From a virus: a DNA stretch of 41,448 bases. The notes under the pieces were generated by a model that made no database searches, had not been told where the DNA came from, and worked only from the letters and a program-made list of their open reading frames with translations. Location of the stretch: the UHGV virus genome UHGV-0135480; one strand, 5' to 3'. A program made the translations under genes and the position numbers. This document shows positions 1 to 30,259 of the stretch, one piece after another (position 1 is the stretch's first letter; every line of letters begins with the position of its first letter).

Positions 1-34
1 GTCTATACGGGTTCAAATCCCGTAGGTCACCCCA
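1..34 (+). tRNA. 3' portion of a tRNA truncated by the window edge (T-arm, acceptor 3' strand, encoded CCA)
   Basis: T-stem acggg(7-11)/cccgt(19-23) around T-loop TTCAAAT(12-18), then 7-nt acceptor strand, discriminator and CCA at 32-34. The 5' half is outside the window, so isotype is unknown. Confidence 0.45.
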
Positions 35-40
35 ATTTAT

Positions 41-116
41 AGTCCAAGTAGCTTATATGGTTAAAGCGCGTGTCTGAAAAACATGAGAAGAGGGTTCAAA
101 TCCCACTGGACTACCA
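41..116 (+). tRNA. tRNA, probable tRNA-Phe (anticodon GAA)
   Basis: Acceptor agtccag-like pairing 41-47 with 106-112, D-arm with GG, anticodon stem cgtgt(69-73)/acatg(81-85) with loop cTGAAaa (U33, GAA at 76-78), T-loop GGTTCAAATCC, encoded CCA 114-116. One acceptor and one T-stem mismatch lower confidence. Confidence 0.55.
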
Positions 117-132
117 ATTTCAAAGGTGCTTA

Positions 133-867
133 ATGAAAGAGATGACAGAACAAGGTAAGGAGATTTTTAATCTCTTAAAAACCGGTAAAGGGTTTTCTAA
201 CCCACTTATTACTGGTGCAGCAGTTCTCGGTGGAACCGTAGCTGCCTCTACATCACTTGTAAGCTCTATTAGCTCTGTATCAGACCCTACAGTAAAGGAT
301 AAGCTTGTTGCTGCTGGACTTACAACAGTTCTGCTTAACAGCTTTACCACGAGTCTGACAAGCACTACATCAACTACCAAAACACTAACAGATTACGGTC
401 AAAAGTCCATTGATGAGTTTTCATCACGTATGCAGGTAGCAAAAGGTTACTCTAATGTTATGGGTGCAGCAGGTGAACAAGTTGGCTGTACACCATTTAG
501 TGGTATTATGGGTGTTGCTACAGAGTATGGTCAAAAAGCTATTGATACGATTAACAGTGCACTAGATAGTGTTAATGGTGTGTTAAGTGGCTTACAAGAT
601 GCTATTGACAAAGGTCTTGATACTATTTCTGATTTAGCTGAGCAAGCTGTTAGTAAGATTAATGAAGGTATTTCAAAAATTACAGCTTATGCAGATGAAG
701 TTGTGCAGATGATTGAAGAAGAAGCTGCTCTTATTGCAGAGTACCTTAAAACGAATATCAATGGGTTCTTAGCAGGTATCTTACCAGACTGGTTTGATGA
801 TACTTGTAAAACTGGTGTAATTGACACTATTGCAACACCAGAAATGAAGAACGCATTACAGAAATAA
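133..867 (+). CDS. hypothetical Ser/Thr/Ala/Gly-rich protein embedded in the tRNA cluster
   Basis: ORF-track frame 70..867 begins with GTG inside the tRNA; first ATG at 133 is preceded by AGGTGCTTA, the same context as the terL start. No recognisable motif. Confidence 0.5.
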   Translation: MKEMTEQGKEIFNLLKTGKGFSNPLITGAAVLGGTVAASTSLVSSISSVSDPTVKDKLVAAGLTTVLLNSFTTSLTSTTSTTKTLTDYGQKSIDEFSSRMQVAKGYSNVMGAAGEQVGCTPFSGIMGVATEYGQKAIDTINSALDSVNGVLSGLQDAIDKGLDTISDLAEQAVSKINEGISKITAYADEVVQMIEEEAALIAEYLKTNINGFLAGILPDWFDDTCKTGVIDTIATPEMKNALQK

Positions 868-869
868 AT

Positions 870-962
870 GGAAGATTAACCCTAAAAGGTAAGGGAGCAG
901 TTTGCTAAACTGCCAGTAGCTGAGAAATCGGTGTACCAGTTCAAGTCTGGTATCTTCCTCCA
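870..962 (+). tRNA. tRNA-Ser (anticodon GCU), type II with long variable arm
   Basis: Perfect 7-bp acceptor ggaagat(870-876)/atcttcc(952-958), 3-bp D-stem, anticodon stem gcagt/actgc with loop ttGCTaa (GCU at 904-906), about 21-nt variable arm, T-stem accag/ctggt with loop TTCAAGT, CCA 960-962. Confidence 0.75.
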
Positions 963-966
963 ATTT

Positions 967-1042
967 GAATCCGTGACAGAAATGGCTATGTGCCTGTCTG
1001 CAAAACAGGTTTATAAGGGTTCGAGTCCCTTCGGATTCTCCA
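967..1042 (+). tRNA. tRNA-Cys (anticodon GCA)
   Basis: Perfect 7-bp acceptor gaatccg(967-973)/cggattc(1032-1038), anticodon stem cctgt/acagg with loop cTGCAaa (GCA 1000-1002), T-arm aaggg-TTCGAGT-ccctt, discriminator U then CCA 1040-1042. A U73 discriminator is typical of tRNA-Cys. Confidence 0.8.
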
Positions 1043-1204
1043 AGTTATTTTACTCTCTCTCAATTAAAATAATAATAATGCCCTGCTATAAGTATTCTTC
1101 CTTTCGCTACCGAAGAGTATTTTTAGACAGGGATTTTTTACAGAGTTATACTTTATAAGAAGCCTTATACAGTATGTCTCTGACGTACATTGTGGTTTCT
1201 CCTT

Positions 1205-1228
1205 GACGGTCTCTGTGCCGTCTTTTTT
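1205..1228 (+). terminator. candidate rho-independent terminator downstream of the tRNA cluster
   Basis: Stem gacgg(1205-1209)/ccgtc(1218-1222), 8-nt loop, followed by TTTTTT(1223-1228). Confidence 0.4.
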
Positions 1229-1264
1229 AAGGGGAAACATGGTTAATTATTTGGAGAAAACATA

Positions 1265-1465
1265 ATGAGTGAGACCGTTTATAAAGAACTTTATGAAGCT
1301 AACAAAAAGCTAGAATTTATGCAGAATACTATCATGGCAATTGCAGATAGATTATCTGTAGCAACAGGTATTGATATCAAAGAAGCCTCTATGGATGCAC
1401 TTCTTGATGCTGTTGATGCAAAGTTCGAAGTTAAGAAAGAAGAGACTGCTACAGACTCTGAATAA
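1265..1465 (+). CDS. hypothetical 66-aa protein immediately upstream of terL (small terminase subunit cannot be excluded)
   Basis: ATG at 1265 with GGAG upstream; position just 5' of the large terminase. Short for a small terminase subunit and no motif seen. Confidence 0.35.
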   Translation: MSETVYKELYEANKKLEFMQNTIMAIADRLSVATGIDIKEASMDALLDAVDAKFEVKKEETATDSE

Positions 1466-1486: not shown

Positions 1487-3088
1487 ATGGATTTAAATGC
1501 TGTTAAGCAGAAGCGAGTGGAAGATGTTAGGAAAGTCCTAGCTGGAGAGTTGGGGCTTTCTGATGAAGTAAAAGAAATTATCAAATCATTCGGTAAAGAC
1601 CCCTCTAAATTCCTTCCAACTCAAATTCTGACTTTATTAAGATACACACCAGACCAAGTTAGACTTATCTTCAAATTGATGACTGATAAGAATTATGTAG
1701 CCCCTCAGCCGGGTTCTCAAGAGGTCTTTTTAAATACTAATGCTGACTTGGTTCTCTATGGTGGTGCTGCTGGTGCTGGTAAGACTGCTGCATTGTTAAT
1801 GGACTCTTTAAGATTTATCGAAGACCCTAACTATAATGCTGTATATTTCCGTCGAAATACAACACAGCTACAAGGTGGTTTATGGCCTGCTGCAAAGAAA
1901 CTATTTGGTAAGTTTGGTGGGATTCCTCACGAGCAGAAAATGACTATCACATTCCCTTCTGGGGCGACTATCAAGTTTACCTATCTAGAACTTGAAAAGC
2001 ACGCTGAAGGCCATCAGGGTATTGAATACTCAGCTATTTACTTTGACGAAGGTACACACTTCTCTGCTTCACAGATTTCATACCTACAAACCCGTTTACG
2101 TTCTGGTGCTGAAGGTGATTCATACATGAAGATTTCTATGAACCCAGACAGAGACCACTTTATTTACGATTGGGTAGAGCCATTCTTAGATGAAGAAGGT
2201 TATCCAGACCCTGAAAAGTGTGGTCGTATTCGTTGGTATGTAATGAACGATGGTGTGATGGTTTCTGATTGGGAGAGAGACAAGATTCTTGAAATGTTCC
2301 CTCTTGAGATTCCTCAAACATACACCTTTATCTCTGGTACGATTGATGATAACCCAATCCTTGACTTCTTAGAGCCTAAGTACCGTGGTAAGTTGGAAAA
2401 CAACACCCCTGTAAACGTTGCAAGACTTCGTTTCGGTAACTGGAAGGCTCGTGCAGAAGGTTCAAACTATTGGCAAAGACAATGGTGTGAGATTGTTGAT
2501 TCACTCCCAGAAGATGTATTCGATGTTAGAGCATGGGACTTAGCAGCAACTTTACCATCTGAGATTAACCCTAATCCAGACTGGACAGCAGGTGTTAAGA
2601 TGGGTAAATCTAAAAAAGACGGTTGCTATTATATCATTGATGTAGTAAGATTTAGAGATAGACCCTCTGGAGTCGAAACACAAATTAATTTGACTGCTGA
2701 AAGTGACGGTAAGCGAACTGGTATTTTTATCCCTCAAGACCCAGGCGCTGCTGGTAAATCCTACGCAACATCCCTCATCAGGAAACTTGCCGAGAAAGGT
2801 TATCGAGCAAGAGCCAAACCAACAAATAAAGATAAAGTTACCCGCTTTGCGGGATTTTCTGCTGCTTCTGAAGCTGGACTTGTAAAAGTCTTGAGAGGTA
2901 GTTGGAATGAAGCTTACTTTCAAGAACTTGAAGGCTTTTGTGGTGACGGCAAAACTAAAGATGACCAAGTGGATGCTACCAGTGATGCTTTCAACAGTCT
3001 TAACGAAGTTAAATTATTCAAGCCACCATCAATGGGTGCTCACACAGATTTAGTGAGAGGAAACCCATATGAGGGGCTTAGACGTTGA
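1487..3088 (+). CDS. terL: terminase large subunit
   Basis: Walker A-like LYGGAAGAGKT near the N-terminus, size about 533 aa, position ahead of portal. ORF track starts at TTG 1472; ATG 1487 has GGAGG 6 nt upstream. Confidence 0.85.
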   Translation: MDLNAVKQKRVEDVRKVLAGELGLSDEVKEIIKSFGKDPSKFLPTQILTLLRYTPDQVRLIFKLMTDKNYVAPQPGSQEVFLNTNADLVLYGGAAGAGKTAALLMDSLRFIEDPNYNAVYFRRNTTQLQGGLWPAAKKLFGKFGGIPHEQKMTITFPSGATIKFTYLELEKHAEGHQGIEYSAIYFDEGTHFSASQISYLQTRLRSGAEGDSYMKISMNPDRDHFIYDWVEPFLDEEGYPDPEKCGRIRWYVMNDGVMVSDWERDKILEMFPLEIPQTYTFISGTIDDNPILDFLEPKYRGKLENNTPVNVARLRFGNWKARAEGSNYWQRQWCEIVDSLPEDVFDVRAWDLAATLPSEINPNPDWTAGVKMGKSKKDGCYYIIDVVRFRDRPSGVETQINLTAESDGKRTGIFIPQDPGAAGKSYATSLIRKLAEKGYRARAKPTNKDKVTRFAGFSAASEAGLVKVLRGSWNEAYFQELEGFCGDGKTKDDQVDATSDAFNSLNEVKLFKPPSMGAHTDLVRGNPYEGLRR

Positions 3089-7183: not shown

Positions 7184-8287
7184 ATGTTGACTAATTCTGA
7201 AAAAAGCAGATTTTTCCTTGCTGACCTGACTGGTGAAGTCCAGTCTATCCCAAATACTTATGGGTATATTTCCAACTTAGGTCTGTTCCGTTCAGCACCA
7301 ATCACCCAAACTACTTTCCTTATGGACTTGACTGATTGGGATGTTAGCTTACTGGATGCGGTAGACCGTGATAGCCGTAAAGCAGAGACTAGCGCACCTG
7401 AGCGTGTTCGTCAAATCAGCTTCCCAATGATGTACTTCAAAGAAGTTGAAAGCATTACTCCTGATGAGATTCAGGGTGTACGTCAGCCAGGCACTGCAAA
7501 TGAACTGACTACTGAAGCTGTAGTACGTGCTAAGAAGCTGATGAAGATTCGTACCAAGTTCGATATTACTCGTGAGTTCCTGTTTATGCAAGCTCTGAAG
7601 GGTAAAGTTGTTGATGCTCGTGGTACTCTGTATGCTGACCTGTACAAGCAGTTCGACGTTGAGAAGAAGACTGTTTACTTCGACCTTGACAATCCTAATG
7701 CTGACATCGACGCTTCTATTGAAGAACTGCGTATGCACATGGAAGACGAAGCTAAGACTGGCACTGTAATCAACGGTGAAGAAATTCACGTAGTTGTTGA
7801 CCGTGTGTTCTTCAGCAAACTGGTTAAGCATCCTAAGATTCGTGACGCTTATCTTGCACAGCAGACTCCACTGGCTTGGCAACAGATTACTGGTTCTCTG
7901 AGAACTGGTGGTTCTGACGGTGTTCAGGCTCACATGAATACTTTCTACTACGGTGGTGTTAAGTTTGTCCAGTACAACGGTAAGTTCAAAGACAAGCGTG
8001 GTAAGGTTCATACTCTGGTGAGTATTGACAGCGTAGCAGACACTGTTGGTGTTGGTCATGCTTTCCCTAACGTATCTATGCTGGGTGAAGCTAACAACAT
8101 CTTCGAAGTTGCATATGGCCCATGTCCTAAGATGGGTTATGCAAATACACTTGGTCAGGAACTGTACGTATTTGAATACGAAAAAGACCGTGACGAAGGT
8201 ATTGACTTTGAAGCTCACTCTTACATGCTGCCATACTGTACTCGTCCTCAGTTGCTGGTAGATGTTCGTGCTGACGCCAAAGACTAA
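7184..8287 (+). CDS. major capsid protein (lambda gpE-like)
   Basis: 367 aa, position after protease/scaffold, GGAG RBS, strongly host-optimal codon usage. Similarity to lambda E is recalled from memory (for example the C-terminal region), not searched. Confidence 0.7.
   Translation: MLTNSEKSRFFLADLTGEVQSIPNTYGYISNLGLFRSAPITQTTFLMDLTDWDVSLLDAVDRDSRKAETSAPERVRQISFPMMYFKEVESITPDEIQGVRQPGTANELTTEAVVRAKKLMKIRTKFDITREFLFMQALKGKVVDARGTLYADLYKQFDVEKKTVYFDLDNPNADIDASIEELRMHMEDEAKTGTVINGEEIHVVVDRVFFSKLVKHPKIRDAYLAQQTPLAWQQITGSLRTGGSDGVQAHMNTFYYGGVKFVQYNGKFKDKRGKVHTLVSIDSVADTVGVGHAFPNVSMLGEANNIFEVAYGPCPKMGYANTLGQELYVFEYEKDRDEGIDFEAHSYMLPYCTRPQLLVDVRADAKD

Positions 8288-12739: not shown

Positions 12740-12740
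<1 letters not shown>
12501..12740 (+). CDS. tail assembly chaperone C-terminal extension (-1 frame; likely made as a frameshift fusion)
   Basis: Frame is open from 12429, overlapping the upstream chaperone ORF; ATG at 12501 could also allow independent translation. Confidence 0.4.
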
Positions 12741-20756
<8,016 letters not shown>

Positions 20757-20758
20757 TA

Positions 20759-21931
20759 ATGGCAGTAGGTGAAATTCAAATTAGTGCCTTGCCTCAAGCA
20801 GCTTTACCAATTGACCTTAGTGATATCTTCCATCTTAAGCAGGGTATTGAGGATAAGAGGTGTACTCTTGAGCAATTACTTGCTCCACACGCAAGCCTAA
20901 GAAATAACCCTCATGGTGTTACTAAAACACAAATTGGTTTAGATAATGTTATTAATGCTCTTCAGTTAGTCGCTGCAAATAACTTATCAGATATTGTTAA
21001 TGTAGCTGAGGCAAGAGCAAATCTACAGATTATGTCTTCAGAAGAGGTTAATAACCTTGTCCAGCAACATATCAAGGACAAGAGTAATCCACACAATACA
21101 ACTAAGGCACAGGTTGGTTTAAGTAATGTTCAGAACTGGACAACATCTAATCTGTATAACGAAGATGCAGATAAGTATGCTACAGCAAGAGCAGTAAATA
21201 ACTTGTACAAGGCTGTTCAGGCTTCTTATCCAGTAGGTACTATTCATCTTTCTATGAACTCTGCAAACCCTTCTACATACTTAATTTGTGGAGGTACTTG
21301 GGAGTTAGTTTCAAAAGGCAGGGCATTGGTTGGCTATGACTCTGATACAAGACCAGCAGGTTCTGTATTTGGTGCTTCAACTGTCACTTTGTCAGTTAAT
21401 AACATGCCTCAACACTCCCACTCTGTGTCACTTAGTGGTGGTGGTCACACTCATAATGCAACTGTGTCAATTTCAGCTTTTGATTATGGGACTAAGACTA
21501 CAAACTCTTTTGACTATGGGACAAAAGCTACTAACACAACTGGTAACCATACACACAGTGTGTCAGGTAACACAAGCACCAATGGTACTCACAACCATGA
21601 TGTGTATCCTAGAGAAAATGATGGTACTGGTAATGCTGTAGCTGACTCTGATGGTGGTGGTGCAAGAAGGACATCAAGGACTTCTAGTGACGGTGCGCAC
21701 TCACACAGCTTTAACGTCACATCTGGTGCATCAGGTGACCACAGCCACACGGTTGGTATTGGTGCTCACAGCCATACAGTTGGTATTGGTTCACATACGC
21801 ATAGTGGCACTGTAACAGTTTCTTCTTCTGAACATACACATAGTGGCAATACAAATAGTGTTGGTGGAGGTCAGGCAGTTAATATTGAACAGCCATCCTT
21901 CGTACTGTATGTATGGCAGAGAACAGCTTAA
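20759..21931 (+). CDS. tail fibre protein with C-terminal His-x-His repeat domain
   Basis: 390 aa; C-terminal 170 aa is Gly/Ser/Thr-rich with at least 9 HxH triplets (HSHSVS, HTHSVSG, AHSHTVGIG) and two FDYGTK repeats; ends VLYVWQRTA, paralogous to the end of the next gene. Confidence 0.6.
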   Translation: MAVGEIQISALPQAALPIDLSDIFHLKQGIEDKRCTLEQLLAPHASLRNNPHGVTKTQIGLDNVINALQLVAANNLSDIVNVAEARANLQIMSSEEVNNLVQQHIKDKSNPHNTTKAQVGLSNVQNWTTSNLYNEDADKYATARAVNNLYKAVQASYPVGTIHLSMNSANPSTYLICGGTWELVSKGRALVGYDSDTRPAGSVFGASTVTLSVNNMPQHSHSVSLSGGGHTHNATVSISAFDYGTKTTNSFDYGTKATNTTGNHTHSVSGNTSTNGTHNHDVYPRENDGTGNAVADSDGGGARRTSRTSSDGAHSHSFNVTSGASGDHSHTVGIGAHSHTVGIGSHTHSGTVTVSSSEHTHSGNTNSVGGGQAVNIEQPSFVLYVWQRTA

Positions 21932-28626: not shown

Positions 28627-28681
28627 ACTATACCAAACCTAACCCCACCTAACCCTACCACACCAGACCTAACCTAACCTT
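28627..28681. repeat. pentanucleotide-periodic tract A1, (ACCNN)x11 on + strand
   Basis: ACC at 28632, 28637 ... 28677 with exact 5-nt spacing (ACCAA ACCTA ACCCC ACCTA ACCCT ACCAC ACCAG ACCTA ACCTA ACCTT). Confidence 0.85.
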
Positions 28682-28682
28682 G

Positions 28683-28751
28683 TTAAAAGACCCTCTTAAA
28701 GACCTTTTAAAAAGGTAAGTCTCATTTTAATGTAGCTGAGACTAACTACCC
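28683..28751. repeat. conserved 69-bp module, copy 1: 33-bp box plus 7-bp-stem hairpin
   Basis: Box ttaaaagaccctcttaaagaccttttaaaaagg (28683-28715), hairpin agtctca-12 nt-tgagact (28718-28743), then aactaccc. Identical to 30094-30162. Confidence 0.85.
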
Positions 28752-28753
28752 AT

Positions 28754-28813
28754 ACCAGACCCTACCTTACCAAACCAGACCTCACCCTACCCCACCATAC
28801 CGTATACTACCTC
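28754..28813. repeat. pentanucleotide-periodic tract A2, (ACCNN)x12
   Basis: ACC at 28754 + 5k for k = 0-11, with one degenerate unit (ATA at 28804). Confidence 0.85.
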
Positions 28814-28874: not shown

Positions 28875-29315
28875 TTAGAAAGGTTTTCTGCGTTGCTTGT
28901 TAATGTTAGCTTTCATAGCAGCTAAGTGGTTTTGCTGTTCAATTAGTCGTGAACGTTCTTGGTGGCTAAGTGCCATAGTGTTCACATTCTCAATTGCTTG
29001 AGTAGCTTGCTTTAAAGCACGACCAATTTTACCAGACATTTTACGTTTTGCAATAGTTGCTTGATGCTTAGGTTCAACCACACGATAACCAACACCCATT
29101 GAAGCAACCAGATAAATCTTCTCTTCTTTAAGAAGCTTCTCAATAAACTTCTCAAGTCGGTTTAGACGTGTAAGCGCATAAGCCTTCATTTCATCTTCGT
29201 ACTTAACAATGTCACCTTGATAAGTTGGCTTCACAATACCTAAGAAGGTGTCCATCTCAGAGTGTGATACAGTGTCACCGTAACTAAACTTTGCTGCTAA
29301 TGCTTTTGTATTCAT
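28875..29315 (-). CDS. hypothetical protein (146 aa), cassette gene 2
   Basis: ATG at 29315, stop at 28875 followed by the hairpin/U-tract; basic helical C-terminus. No motif recognised. Confidence 0.5.
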   Translation of the reverse strand: MNTKALAAKFSYGDTVSHSEMDTFLGIVKPTYQGDIVKYEDEMKAYALTRLNRLEKFIEKLLKEEKIYLVASMGVGYRVVEPKHQATIAKRKMSGKIGRALKQATQAIENVNTMALSHQERSRLIEQQNHLAAMKANINKQRRKPF

Positions 29316-29317
29316 AA

Positions 29318-29923
<606 letters not shown>

Positions 29924-30017
29924 TTAGTTGATTGTTAAGTTGTTTGTAAAGAACCCTCAACAGAAGACTCTTTAGAAACTTGGTAGATTTTTAACGTGGC
30001 TACTACCATCCACCCAT

Positions 30018-30092
30018 ACCATACCGAACCTTACCTTACCAAACCAGACCGCGCCTTACCAAACCAGACCAAACATTACTTTACCCTACCTT
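30018..30092. repeat. pentanucleotide-periodic tract B1, (ACCNN)x15
   Basis: ACC (occasionally GCC/ACA/ACT) at 30018 + 5k for k = 0-14; contains the 17-nt subrepeat ccttaccaaaccagacc also present in tract A2. Confidence 0.85.
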
Positions 30093-30162: not shown

Positions 30163-30169
30163 GCACTTT

Positions 30170-30259
30170 ACCGCACCGGACCTTACCGGACCGCACATCA
30201 CCGCACTAAACCAGACATCACATTACCTGACCACACCAAACCAAACATCACATTACTTA
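30170..30259. repeat. pentanucleotide-periodic tract B2, (ACYNN/ACANN)x18
   Basis: AC at 30170 + 5k for k = 0-17 (ACCGC ACCGG ACCTT ACCGG ACCGC ACATC ACCGC ACTAA ACCAG ACATC ACATT ACCTG ACCAC ACCAA ACCAA ACATC ACATT ACTTA). Confidence 0.85.

What the first reader, a model, noticed from the sequence alone, without database searches (positions are those of the whole stretch)
1..1042. tRNA cluster interrupted by a protein-coding gene
At least four tRNA genes (one cut by the window edge) lie just upstream of the packaging genes, with a 245-aa Ser/Thr-rich ORF wedged between the second and third tRNA. All complete tRNAs encode their CCA ends. A protein gene inside a tRNA array is unusual and its product is unannotatable from sequence.
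Basis: seen in the sequence. Interest (0 to 1): 0.4.

Follow-up and report, generated by a model that had tools for sequence, protein, structure and literature searches.

The report
End of a phage tRNA array
This is the last stretch of the well-known cluster of about 26 tRNA genes of Felix O1-like coliphages, with a conserved protein gene of unknown function (DUF7217) packed between two of the tRNAs; it is real, but it is ordinary and already annotated in hundreds of phage genomes.

Summary
ARAGORN and Rfam find tRNA-Phe(GAA) 41-116, tRNA-Ser(GCT) 870-962 and tRNA-Cys(GCA) 967-1042. Bases 1-34 are the 3' end of tRNA-His(GTG). All four end in an encoded CCA. A 244-aa ORF (133-867) lies between Phe and Ser, and TerL starts at 1487.

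The window is a Felixounavirus, 98.9% identical to phage wV8. These four tRNAs close a roughly 5.6-kb array of 26 tRNAs that covers all 20 amino acids. That array also carries HNH endonuclease genes and other ORFs, so a protein gene inside it is not unusual. The Felix O1 genome paper (2010) already describes the layout.

The ORF is Felix O1 ORF49, Pfam DUF7217 (E 8e-88). It is under purifying selection (dN/dS about 0.1) and is confidently predicted as an acidic all-helical bundle. Its function remains unknown.

Modestly new points:
- The tRNA-CDS-tRNA packing is conserved across five Ounavirinae lineages, with 16-17 nt upstream (125 nt to the annotated start in Wc4) and 1-8 nt downstream.
- The orthologous tRNA-Ser lies on the other side of the CDS in Kolesnikvirus.

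The spacing implies co-transcription, with tRNA processing also excising the mRNA. Codon usage does not explain these four tRNAs.

Verdict: already known, low interest.

The parts
1..34 (+). 3' end of tRNA-His(GTG), cut by the window edge. It carries discriminator C and an encoded CCA (32-34).
   Evidence: Identical to wV8 L001 8001-8034, the end of the ARAGORN tRNA-His at 7959-8034. Sequence read.
41..116 (+). tRNA-Phe(GAA) with anticodon loop CTGAAAA and an encoded CCA.
   Evidence: ARAGORN. Rfam RF00005 scores it 45 bits, E 1.6e-6. Sequence.
117..132 (+). 16-nt spacer ATTTCAAAGGTGCTTA, which holds the Shine-Dalgarno sequence (AAGGTG, 123-128) of the ORF. It is too short to hold a promoter.
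   Evidence: The same spacer is 16-17 nt in Felix O1, Sf14 and SUSP1.
133..867 (+). Protein gene of 244 aa (25.5 kDa, pI 4.5). It is Felix O1 ORF49 and wV8 gp54, a member of Pfam DUF7217 and PHROG 2114, predicted as an all-alpha bundle.
   Evidence: Pfam E 7.9e-88, 294.6 bits against a cut-off of 29. PHROG 2114 E 2e-110. dN/dS 0.10-0.13. AlphaFold2 pLDDT 95.9. Felix O1 Supplementary Table 1.
870..962 (+). tRNA-Ser(GCT) with a long variable arm and an encoded CCA. It starts 2 nt after the ORF's stop codon.
   Evidence: ARAGORN. Rfam 46.2 bits. Orthologs are aligned. It is not annotated in the wV8 and Felix O1 records.
967..1042 (+). tRNA-Cys(GCA) with discriminator T and an encoded CCA. It is the last tRNA of the array.
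   Evidence: ARAGORN. Rfam 56.4 bits, E 1.1e-9.
1081..1139 (+). Long imperfect hairpin (1081-1132) followed by a T-run (1134-1139). This is the first terminator-like element after the array.
   Evidence: RNA fold of 1043-1264: -65.7 kcal/mol, z = -5.5. Helix coordinates. One compensated U-A to C-G change between the window and Sf14.
1205..1228 (+). GC-rich hairpin GACGG...CCGTC followed by TTTTTT. This is an intrinsic-terminator-like site and the likely end of the tRNA/ORF transcription unit.
   Evidence: Terminator scan. Conserved in Felix O1, Sf14 and SUSP1.

Best explanation
The region is the 3' end of the tRNA array that all Felix O1-like phages (Ounavirinae) carry between their early genes and their packaging/head genes. 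In the close relative wV8 the array has 26 tRNA genes, at least one for each of the 20 amino acids. His, Phe, Ser(AGY) and Cys are the last four.

A conserved 244-aa gene (Felix O1 ORF49, Pfam DUF7217) sits between tRNA-Phe and tRNA-Ser, with a 16-nt spacer upstream and a 2-nt spacer downstream.

Inferred mechanism:
- The tRNAs and the embedded ORFs are transcribed together by host RNA polymerase from sigma-70-like promoters further upstream. Transcription ends at the hairpin/terminator cluster at 1081-1228.
- Host RNase P cuts the tRNA 5' ends. Host RNase E and 3' exonucleases trim to the encoded CCA.
- The same cuts release the ORF mRNA with a 16-nt leader that carries its Shine-Dalgarno sequence and a 3' end about 2 nt past the stop codon.
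- The tRNAs act as a near-complete private decoding set for a low-GC virulent phage. They do not look like targeted fixes for rare codons.

The ORF product is a compact, acidic helical bundle with two near-invariant cysteines. Its function is not established. My best guess is a low-copy accessory protein that may associate with particles or membranes, not a tRNA-related factor.

Shown: identity of the tRNAs, the ORF family, purifying selection, conserved spacing and synteny. Inferred: co-transcription, processing and the role of the protein.
For: Identity of the region:
- 98.9% identity to wV8 over 3.1 kb. 295 phage records match, and 219 of them cover at least 80% of the query.
- wV8 carries 26 tRNAs covering all 20 amino acids.
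- The tRNAs are confirmed by two methods.
- The ORF matches DUF7217 and PHROG 2114 and equals Felix O1 ORF49. dN/dS is 0.10-0.13.

Conserved packing between tRNAs:
- Upstream, 16-17 nt separate the preceding tRNA from the ATG in the window, Felix O1, Sf14, SUSP1 and Panisse. Downstream, the stop codon is followed by a tRNA after 2, 2, 1, 2, 8 and 1 nt in the window, Felix O1, Sf14, SUSP1, Wc4 and Panisse.
- Other embedded CDSs in Felix O1 are packed the same way. HNH ORF47 has spacers of 14 nt and 1 nt; ORF48 has 18 nt and 8 nt.
- A 16-nt spacer cannot hold a promoter.

Transcription signals and timing:
- Near-consensus TTGACA promoters lie upstream of tRNA-Pro and after tRNA-Ile. The first terminator-like site on the + strand downstream of the last tRNA gene follows tRNA-Cys.
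- Felix O1 RT-PCR puts the array-embedded ORFs 45, 46, 48 and 49 together in the '5 min' class. TerL (ORF52) is in the 25-min class (PMC3185647 Table 3).

Why the protein is not tRNA-linked:
- Homologs in Ackermannviridae, phage IME392 and an Acinetobacter phage are not next to tRNAs.

Role of the tRNAs:
- Phe, His, Cys and Ser-AGY are two-codon boxes, each read by a single G34 tRNA.
- Phage use of them (38.5, 17.2, 9.3 and 18.3 per 1000 codons) is not consistently above the host's (31-32, 19.5-26, 5.6-10.3 and 11.5-28.6).
- The Felix O1 paper does not list these four among the tRNAs expected to affect translation.
Against: - No transcript-level data were found for any Felixounavirus.
- The promoter-like matches are no more frequent than in shuffled sequence: 22 found against 19.5 expected.
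- The RT-PCR classes are crude. The major capsid gene ORF58 is also in the '5 min' class.
- An mRNA that ends 2 nt after its stop codon with no protective hairpin might be unstable.

The protein's role is unresolved.
- The Felix O1 paper names 'Gp49' as a 51-kDa virion band. That mass fits the 450-aa ORF63 or a dimer, not a 25.5-kDa monomer.
- LIMEstone1 ORF129, taken as the homolog from its 25.03-kDa mass and its position two ORFs from gp3 (as in JA15), was found in virions with only 2 peptides. The same list contains evident non-structural contaminants.
- The Sf14 cryo-EM gene table does not list the homolog.
- No PDB chain matches the family.
Confidence: 0.7

Rival explanations
1. The ORF is the first gene of the late packaging/head module and encodes a virion (internal or minor structural) protein. 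On this reading the tRNA-Ser and tRNA-Cys genes were merely transposed downstream of it, so 'array interrupted by a gene' is an accident of tRNA shuffling.
For: - The gene lies directly upstream of the 66-aa gene, TerL and portal in all Ounavirinae examined.
- The orthologous tRNA-Ser(GCT) is upstream of the CDS in Kolesnikvirus and downstream elsewhere, so tRNAs have moved around it.
- LIMEstone1 ORF129, 25.03 kDa and taken as the homolog from its mass and position, was detected in CsCl-purified virions with 2 peptides and 18% coverage. The JA15 homolog is annotated 'unknown structural protein'.
- The Felix O1 paper lists Gp49 among structural proteins.
- There are weak partial matches to tape-measure PHROGs.
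Against: - A tRNA directly follows the CDS in every Ounavirinae lineage checked, Kolesnikvirus included (Rfam tRNA at L004 5731-5804). The embedding is therefore ancient, not accidental.
- The terminator-like cluster separates the ORF from the 66-aa gene and TerL.
- Felix O1 RT-PCR groups it with the array ORFs, not with TerL.
- The 51-kDa mass given for 'Gp49' does not fit a 25.5-kDa protein.
- The Sf14 structural and MS table omits it, and no solved virion chain matches it.
- In IME392 and Ab1-TPeters the homolog lies among early-type genes, next to a DNA ligase, a Pol X and a Lon-inhibitor homolog in IME392.
Confidence: 0.2
2. The ORF product acts on the neighbouring tRNAs or on translation, for example as a maturation, protection or charging factor. 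That would explain why it stays inside the array.
For: The gene sits next to tRNA-Ser(GCT) in five Ounavirinae lineages.
Against: - The protein is acidic (pI 4.5) and all-helical. It matches no nucleic-acid-binding or enzymatic Pfam family.
- Structure searches return only generic helical bundles.
- Homologs in Ackermannviridae and in roughly 110-kb myoviruses are not next to tRNA genes.
Confidence: 0.05
3. The ORF is a selfish or mobile insertion, like the homing-endonuclease genes in the same array, that has recently split the tRNA cluster.
For: HNH endonuclease genes do sit between tRNAs in this array, and their presence varies between strains.
Against: - The gene is present at the same site in Felixounavirus, Mooglevirus, Suspvirus, Kolesnikvirus and a Wc4-like phage.
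- It has no nuclease domain.
- It is under strong purifying selection.
- It belongs to a small family of full-length proteins: 56 representatives among 1.84 billion, without patchy mobile-element-like copies.
Confidence: 0.03
4. The tRNA-like sequences are decayed pseudogenes or chance cloverleaves with no function.
For: - tRNAscan-SE labelled the His tRNA 'pseudo' in Felix O1 and wV8.
- That tRNA lacks an encoded G at position -1.
- tRNA-Ser(GCT) was missed in older annotations.
Against: - Phe, Ser and Cys all score above the Rfam gathering threshold.
- tRNA-Ser keeps its fold between genera through three fully compensated anticodon-stem pairs.
- The set is conserved across genera.
Confidence: 0.02

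Closest known systems
tRNA gene cluster of Salmonella phage Felix O1 and E. coli phage wV8 (Felixounavirus)
   Same: The locus is the same. It is 98.9% identical to wV8 and has the same order: His-Phe-ORF49-Ser-Cys-66-aa gene-TerL. The Felix O1 paper describes the layout and ORF49 (PMC3185647).
   Different: There is no material difference. The published annotations miss tRNA-Ser(GCT) and instead call a spurious CDS (wV8 gp55, Felix O1 ORF50) over the Ser/Cys tRNAs.
tRNA set of Shigella phage Sf14 (Mooglevirus), analysed computationally in PMC12482277
   Same: It is an orthologous array of 26 tRNAs. Its Phe, Ser(GCT) and Cys anticodon loops (CTGAAAA, TTGCTAA, CTGCAAA) match this window exactly. 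The CDS lies between Phe and Ser in the same way.
   Different: It belongs to a different genus. The DUF7217 protein is 82% identical. That paper does not discuss the embedded gene or transcript processing.
tRNA regions of phages T4 and T5, which hold interspersed ORFs and homing endonucleases (own knowledge, not tested here)
   Same: These are clusters of phage tRNA genes transcribed as precursors and matured by host RNase P and RNase E, with protein genes between tRNA subclusters.
   Different: The phage lineages are unrelated and the ORFs differ. I did not compare the sequences.
tRNA-mRNA co-transcripts: the E. coli thrU-tyrU-glyT-thrT-tufB operon and the mitochondrial 'tRNA punctuation' model (own knowledge)
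   Same: In both, an mRNA is flanked by tRNAs so that tRNA processing defines the mRNA ends. That is the proposed working analogy for the 16-nt and 2-nt spacers here.
   Different: For this phage it is only an inference from spacing, and no transcript mapping exists. In mitochondria the punctuation is genome-wide, whereas here it concerns a few ORFs.
Pfam DUF7217 / PHROG 2114, including LIMEstone1 ORF129 'unknown structural protein'
   Same: The match is full-length, covering 236 of 238 profile positions at 294.6 bits. The family shares NPL, AAGLT and ATPE(L/M)K motifs and two near-invariant cysteines.
   Different: The family has no assigned function. The Ackermannviridae members share only 27-29% identity and sit in a different genomic context.

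Membership tests
Bacterial-type tRNA genes (Rfam RF00005) | Cloverleaf sequence and structure scoring above the curated gathering score | tested here: met
   The three tRNAs score 45.0, 46.2 and 56.4 bits against a gathering score of 29. ARAGORN calls the same three, with anticodons GAA, GCT and GCA.
Bacterial-type tRNA genes (Rfam RF00005) | 3' CCA encoded in the gene, as in E. coli tRNA genes | tested here: met
   CCA is present at 32-34, 114-116, 960-962 and 1040-1042.
Bacterial-type tRNA genes (Rfam RF00005) | Expression, processing and aminoacylation in infected cells | not testable with these tools
   No transcriptome or tRNA-seq data for a Felixounavirus were found.
Bacterial tRNA-His | Extra G at position -1 pairing with C73. 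This is the main HisRS identity element in E. coli (own knowledge). | tested here: not met
   C73 is present, but position -1 is T in wV8, Felix O1, Sf14, SUSP1 and Wc4. Only the 3' end of this tRNA lies in the window.
Felixounavirus / Ounavirinae tRNA array | Nucleotide identity and gene order shared with the reference genomes | tested here: met
   The window is 98.9% identical to wV8 over 3.1 kb. Felix O1, Sf14 and SUSP1 have the same order, His-Phe-CDS-Ser-Cys-66-aa gene, followed by TerL in wV8, Felix O1 and Sf14 (the SUSP1 locus ends at the 66-aa gene).
Pfam DUF7217 (PF23854) | Whole-protein score above the Pfam gathering score, with full-length coverage | tested here: met
   The score is 294.6 bits against 29, covering residues 8-243 on profile positions 2-238 of 238.
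Homing endonuclease (HNH or GIY-YIG), the usual ORF type inside phage tRNA arrays | A nuclease domain detectable by profile search | tested here: not met
   Neither Pfam nor PHROGs reports a nuclease family for the ORF.
Tail tape measure protein | A long protein encoded after the tail-chaperone genes, with a strong full-length family match | tested here: not met
   Only partial, weak PHROG matches were found, the best at E 2e-5. The protein is 244 aa and is encoded upstream of TerL. The window's 742-aa ORF at 12740-14968 corresponds by size to Felix O1 ORF67, which the Felix O1 paper suggests may be the tape measure.
i-spanin (Rz-like) | An N-terminal transmembrane anchor plus an adjacent or embedded o-spanin lipoprotein gene | tested here: not met
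   - The best 19-residue hydropathy value is 1.62, which is borderline.
- That helix is part of a confidently predicted all-helical fold (pLDDT 95.9; helix 25-47).
- The gene is flanked by tRNAs, and the only 36-aa + strand ORF listed inside it (455-565) has no Cys.
- Spanins of Felix O1-like phages are reported elsewhere in the genome (PMC4319497).
Virion structural protein | Reproducible detection in purified particles, or placement in a virion structure | tested here: inconclusive
   - The likely homolog, LIMEstone1 ORF129, was found with 2 peptides.
- The Felix O1 text names Gp49, but with a mass of 51 kDa that does not fit.
- The Sf14 structural table does not list it.
- No PDB chain matches the family profile; the best E-value is 0.011.

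The most novel reading that the evidence does not exclude
The most novel reading is that the packing is functional. Across Ounavirinae a tRNA starts 1-8 nt after the stop codon of the DUF7217 gene, and the gene's ATG lies 16-17 nt after the preceding tRNA in all but Wc4 (125 nt to the annotated start there). These phages may therefore use tRNA processing as mitochondria-like 'punctuation' to create the protein's mRNA. They may also use it to tune the mRNA's stability or translation, so that expression of the protein is coupled to tRNA maturation.
Probability: 0.3. Interest if true: 0.4.

Novelty: already known. Interest (0 to 1): 0.15.

Why it matters
The finding matters little beyond housekeeping. 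It does show that many reference annotations of Felix O1-like phages miss tRNA-Ser(GCT) and carry a spurious CDS in its place. One Kolesnikvirus record also misses a tRNA-Cys.

If the tRNA-punctuation reading were confirmed, these phages would be a simple bacterial system for studying how tRNA processing shapes a neighbouring mRNA. These phages are under study for Salmonella and E. coli biocontrol (PMC8300805, PMC2674420). DUF7217 is conserved, under purifying selection and confidently modelled, yet it has no known function in these phages or in the Ackermannviridae. That makes it a reasonable knockout target.

Tried and rejected
1. Codon-usage compensation for the four tRNAs. I compared codon counts of 44 window ORFs with 47 E. 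coli K-12 genes. Phe, His, Cys and Ser-AGY are not consistently used more by the phage, and each box needs only one G34 tRNA, so this is not a convincing reason for these four.

2. Function of the ORF from sequence. Pfam, PHROGs and the PDB sequence search gave only DUF7217/PHROG 2114 and sub-threshold coiled-coil noise: apolipoprotein, MCP signalling domain, tape measure, viral fusion heptad repeats.

3. Function of the ORF from structure.
   - The first AlphaFold model, from 16 close sequences, was poor (pLDDT 64), and its Foldseek search of the PDB was empty.
   - A deeper 33-sequence alignment gave pLDDT 95.9.
   - BFVD returned only family members.
   - None of this assigns a function.

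4. Membrane protein or i-spanin. Rejected, as set out in the membership table.

5. Literature on virion content. Neither the wV8, UAB_Phi87, phiD3 or Bas63 papers nor the held text of the VpaE1 paper (its protein list is in an unheld figure) gave usable evidence for this protein.

6. The name 'Red protein' attached to a 150-aa Felix O1 entry (UniProt O80222). I could not trace it in the literature.

7. Known RNA families in the structured spacer 1043-1264. Rfam found nothing near threshold.

8. Published Felixounavirus transcriptomes. None were found.
Full report
**Observation.** ARAGORN finds three complete tRNA genes on the + strand: Phe(GAA) 41-116, Ser(GCT) 870-962 and Cys(GCA) 967-1042. 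Rfam's tRNA covariance model confirms each above its gathering score, at 45.0, 46.2 and 56.4 bits against 29, with E-values from 1.6e-6 to 1.1e-9. Nothing else in the 41-kb window reaches any Rfam threshold. Bases 1-34 are identical to the last 34 nt of the tRNA-His(GTG) gene of phage wV8. All four genes end in an encoded CCA. Between Phe and Ser lies an ORF from ATG 133 to the stop codon ending at 867. It is 244 aa, 25.5 kDa, pI 4.5 and 20% Ser+Thr. It is preceded by AAGGTG, in the same AGGTGCTTAATG context as the terminase start. TerL (Terminase_6N/6C) is at 1487-3088.

**What the window is.** The first 3.1 kb is 98.9% identical to E. coli O157 phage wV8. It matches 295 phage records, and 219 of these cover at least 80% of the query. 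Almost all are Felixounavirus or other Ounavirinae. In wV8, ARAGORN finds 26 tRNA genes in about 5.6 kb, covering all 20 amino acids, and the four seen here are the last four. The same array carries an HNH endonuclease gene, a 185-aa conserved ORF and several small ORFs in wV8. Felix O1 has further endonuclease genes in it: two HNH ORFs and a putative endonuclease VII, the latter called HNH in RefSeq. The Felix O1 genome paper describes the tRNAs as three groups 'followed by a single tRNA 851 nt downstream'. It lists ORF49 (29271-30005, 244 aa, pI 4.3), with a homolog in the Vi1-like phage phiSboM-AG3 (PMC3185647). A protein gene inside this array is therefore neither unusual nor new.

**The ORF is a real gene of a defined family.**
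- It matches Pfam DUF7217 end to end (E 7.9e-88) and PHROG 2114 (E 2e-110).
- Pairwise dN/dS among the window, Felix O1, Sf14 and SUSP1 orthologs is 0.10-0.13, with dS up to 1.4.
- The family is small. A profile search of 1.84 billion representative proteins finds 56 at E <= 1e-3, nearly all 220-290 aa.
- tblastn finds the gene in 582 phage records, almost all of them from two groups. Ounavirinae share 45-99% identity. Ackermannviridae share 26-29%. One Acinetobacter phage and E. coli phage IME392 also carry it.
- The family shares NPL, AAGLT and ATPE(L/M)K motifs and two near-invariant cysteines, C119 and C225.
- With a 33-sequence alignment AlphaFold2 gives a very confident all-helical model, pLDDT 95.9 and pTM 0.86. 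The mildly hydrophobic helix 25-47 (Kyte-Doolittle 1.62, borderline for a membrane span) is one of the confidently modelled helices.

**Is it a virion protein?** The evidence conflicts.
- For:
  - LIMEstone1 ORF129, 25.03 kDa and two ORFs from gp3 as in JA15, was detected in purified virions. That rests on only 2 peptides, in a list that also holds rIIB, DNA ligase and PhoH.
  - The Felix O1 paper lists 'Gp49' as structural. It calls it a 51-kDa band and a candidate sheath protein, which fits the 450-aa ORF63 or a dimer, not a 25.5-kDa monomer.
- Against:
  - The Sf14 cryo-EM and MS table does not list the homolog.
  - Felix O1 RT-PCR puts ORF49 with the other array ORFs (45, 46, 48) in the 5-min class, while TerL is in the 25-min class. 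The assay is crude, since the capsid gene is also in the 5-min class.
  - In IME392 and the Acinetobacter phage the homolog lies among early-type genes. In IME392 these include a DNA ligase, a Pol X and a Lon-inhibitor homolog.
  - In Ackermannviridae it lies between the capsid gene and gp3/uvsY, a mixed region.

**Comparative anatomy, the one modestly new result.** The CDS is flanked by tRNAs in every Ounavirinae lineage checked.

| Lineage | Gene order | Source |
|---|---|---|
| Felixounavirus, Mooglevirus (Sf14), Suspvirus (SUSP1) | His-Phe-CDS-Ser(GCT)-Cys | |
| Pectobacterium phage Wc4 | His-Lys-CDS-Ser(GCT) | |
| Kolesnikvirus (Erwinia phage Panisse) | His-Ser(GCT)-CDS, then an unannotated tRNA with anticodon GCA | |

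- ARAGORN misses the Panisse tRNA after the CDS, but Rfam scores it at 41.8 bits (L004 5731-5804).
- The Kolesnikvirus Ser(GCT) is orthologous to the Felix-type one. It is 84 of 93 nt identical, with three fully compensated anticodon-stem pairs. The same tRNA gene therefore lies on opposite sides of the CDS in different genera.
- Spacing is tight and conserved. There are 16-17 nt from the preceding tRNA's CCA to the ATG (125 nt to the annotated start in Wc4), and 1-8 nt from the stop codon to the next tRNA.
- The other embedded CDSs of Felix O1 show the same pattern: HNH ORF47 has 14 nt and 1 nt, and ORF48 has 18 nt and 8 nt.

**Mechanism (inferred).** A 16-nt spacer that already contains the Shine-Dalgarno sequence cannot hold a promoter, so the ORF must be transcribed through the upstream tRNA genes. 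Near-consensus TTGACA promoters lie ahead of tRNA-Pro and after tRNA-Ile in wV8. After the last tRNA gene, the first terminator-like site on the + strand follows tRNA-Cys. The promoter matches are not enriched over shuffles, so this is only suggestive. The 222-nt spacer after tRNA-Cys folds far better than shuffles, with z = -5.5. It forms a long hairpin plus T-run (1081-1139), a second hairpin (1141-1182) and a GC hairpin plus TTTTTT (1205-1228). It is conserved across three genera, with one compensated change.

From established E. coli RNA biology, RNase P would cut at +1 of each tRNA. RNase E and 3' exonucleases would trim to the encoded CCA. The same cuts would release the ORF mRNA with a 16-nt leader and almost no 3' UTR. 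This resembles the tufB operon or mitochondrial tRNA punctuation. No transcript data exist to test it.

**Why these tRNAs?** Codon counts of 44 window ORFs against 47 E. coli K-12 genes show no consistent excess.

| Codon box | Phage, per 1000 codons | Host, per 1000 codons |
|---|---|---|
| Phe | 38.5 | 31-32 |
| His | 17.2 | 19.5-26 |
| Cys | 9.3 | 5.6-10.3 |
| Ser-AGY | 18.3 | 11.5-28.6 |

Each of these boxes is read by one G34 tRNA whichever synonymous codon is preferred. The Felix O1 paper likewise does not list them among the seven tRNAs expected to help translation. They are better seen as completing a full 20-amino-acid set. A computational study of the orthologous Sf14 set favours general codon-bias and efficiency effects and finds nuclease evasion unlikely (PMC12482277). 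The anticodon loops here are identical to those of Sf14.

**Verdict.** The feature is the already described end of the Felixounavirus tRNA array with its conserved DUF7217 gene, so interest is low. The residual novelty has two parts: the conserved tRNA-punctuated packing, with the Ser tRNA changing sides, and the still unknown function of a well-folded, conserved protein.

Noticed in passing
window 28627-28679, 28749-28801, 30013-30075, 30165-30202, 30220-30247 (minus strand): - Five arrays of 6-13 consecutive pentamers GGTNN lie in two intergenic regions of the leftward early-gene block. The pattern GGTNNGGTNNGGTNNGGT gives 34 matches against 0.04 expected.
- For four of the arrays the conserved motif TTAAAAGGTCTTTAAGAGGGTCTTTTAA (or a variant of it) lies upstream on the minus strand, giving a roughly 79-nt repeat unit.
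- The wV8 record labels part of it only 'DR_4'.
- On the plus strand the arrays read (NNACC)n, which is C-rich and G-poor.
- Possible roles are a Rho-loading site against antisense read-through, a multi-site protein-binding platform, or iterons. None was tested.
   Followed up: partly
window 1-34; L001 7959-8034 and orthologs: The tRNA-His(GTG) cut by the window edge has discriminator C73 but a T at position -1 in wV8, Felix O1, Sf14, SUSP1 and Wc4. It therefore lacks the encoded G-1:C73 pair, which is the main HisRS identity element in E. coli (own knowledge). tRNAscan-SE flags it as 'pseudo' in the Felix O1 and wV8 annotations. Whether it is charged is unknown.
   Followed up: partly
window 1043-1264: The spacer between tRNA-Cys and the 66-aa gene is strongly structured (-65.7 kcal/mol, z = -5.5). 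It has two terminator-like hairpins and a third hairpin between them. A promoter-like TAGACA-17-TATACT (1124-1152) overlaps the first hairpin. The spacer is conserved in Felix O1, Sf14 and SUSP1 and matches no Rfam family. It could be tandem terminators, a regulatory leader for the packaging operon, or a small RNA.
   Followed up: partly
L004 5731-5804 (Erwinia phage Panisse, OQ818703.1): There is an unannotated tRNA with anticodon GCA 1 nt after the DUF7217 CDS. Rfam scores it 41.8 bits against a gathering score of 29. It has an atypical T-loop and D-arm, and ARAGORN misses it.
   Followed up: yes
window 870-1158; wV8 L001 8910-9158; Felix O1 ORF50: The reference annotations of wV8 and Felix O1 lack tRNA-Ser(GCT). 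They carry instead a 75-82-aa 'hypothetical protein' CDS laid over the Ser and Cys tRNA genes. It is almost certainly spurious.
   Followed up: yes
window 133-867 (protein): BFVD holds UniProt O80222, 'Red protein [Salmonella phage FelixO1]', 150 aa. It is 95% identical over 148 aligned columns to part of this protein. The origin and meaning of the name could not be traced. It may be an old partial or frameshifted Felix O1 submission.
   Followed up: partly
Felix O1 paper PMC3185647 (relates to window 133-867): The text assigns a 51-kDa virion band to 'Gp49' and speculates that it is the tail sheath. Supplementary Table 1 gives ORF49 as 244 aa and ORF63 (450 aa) as the 'major structural protein'. 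This is either a numbering slip or an SDS-stable dimer. Two conserved cysteines exist.
   Followed up: partly
window 1265-1465: A conserved 66-aa acidic protein (PHROG 4397, E 6e-41, function unknown) lies directly upstream of TerL. The Felix O1 paper notes that no small terminase subunit has been identified in this group. By position this protein is a candidate. This was not tested.
   Followed up: no
window 21734-21803: A 27-nt tandem repeat (2.1-2.4 copies) lies inside the 390-aa ORF 20759-21931. Its unit, GGTGACCACAGCCACACAGTTGGTATT, encodes GDHSHTVGI, which contains a His-x-His motif. This resembles the metal-binding HxH repeats of T4 gp37-type fibre tips (own knowledge). The VpaE1 paper reports gp37 homology for the fibre genes.
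   Followed up: no
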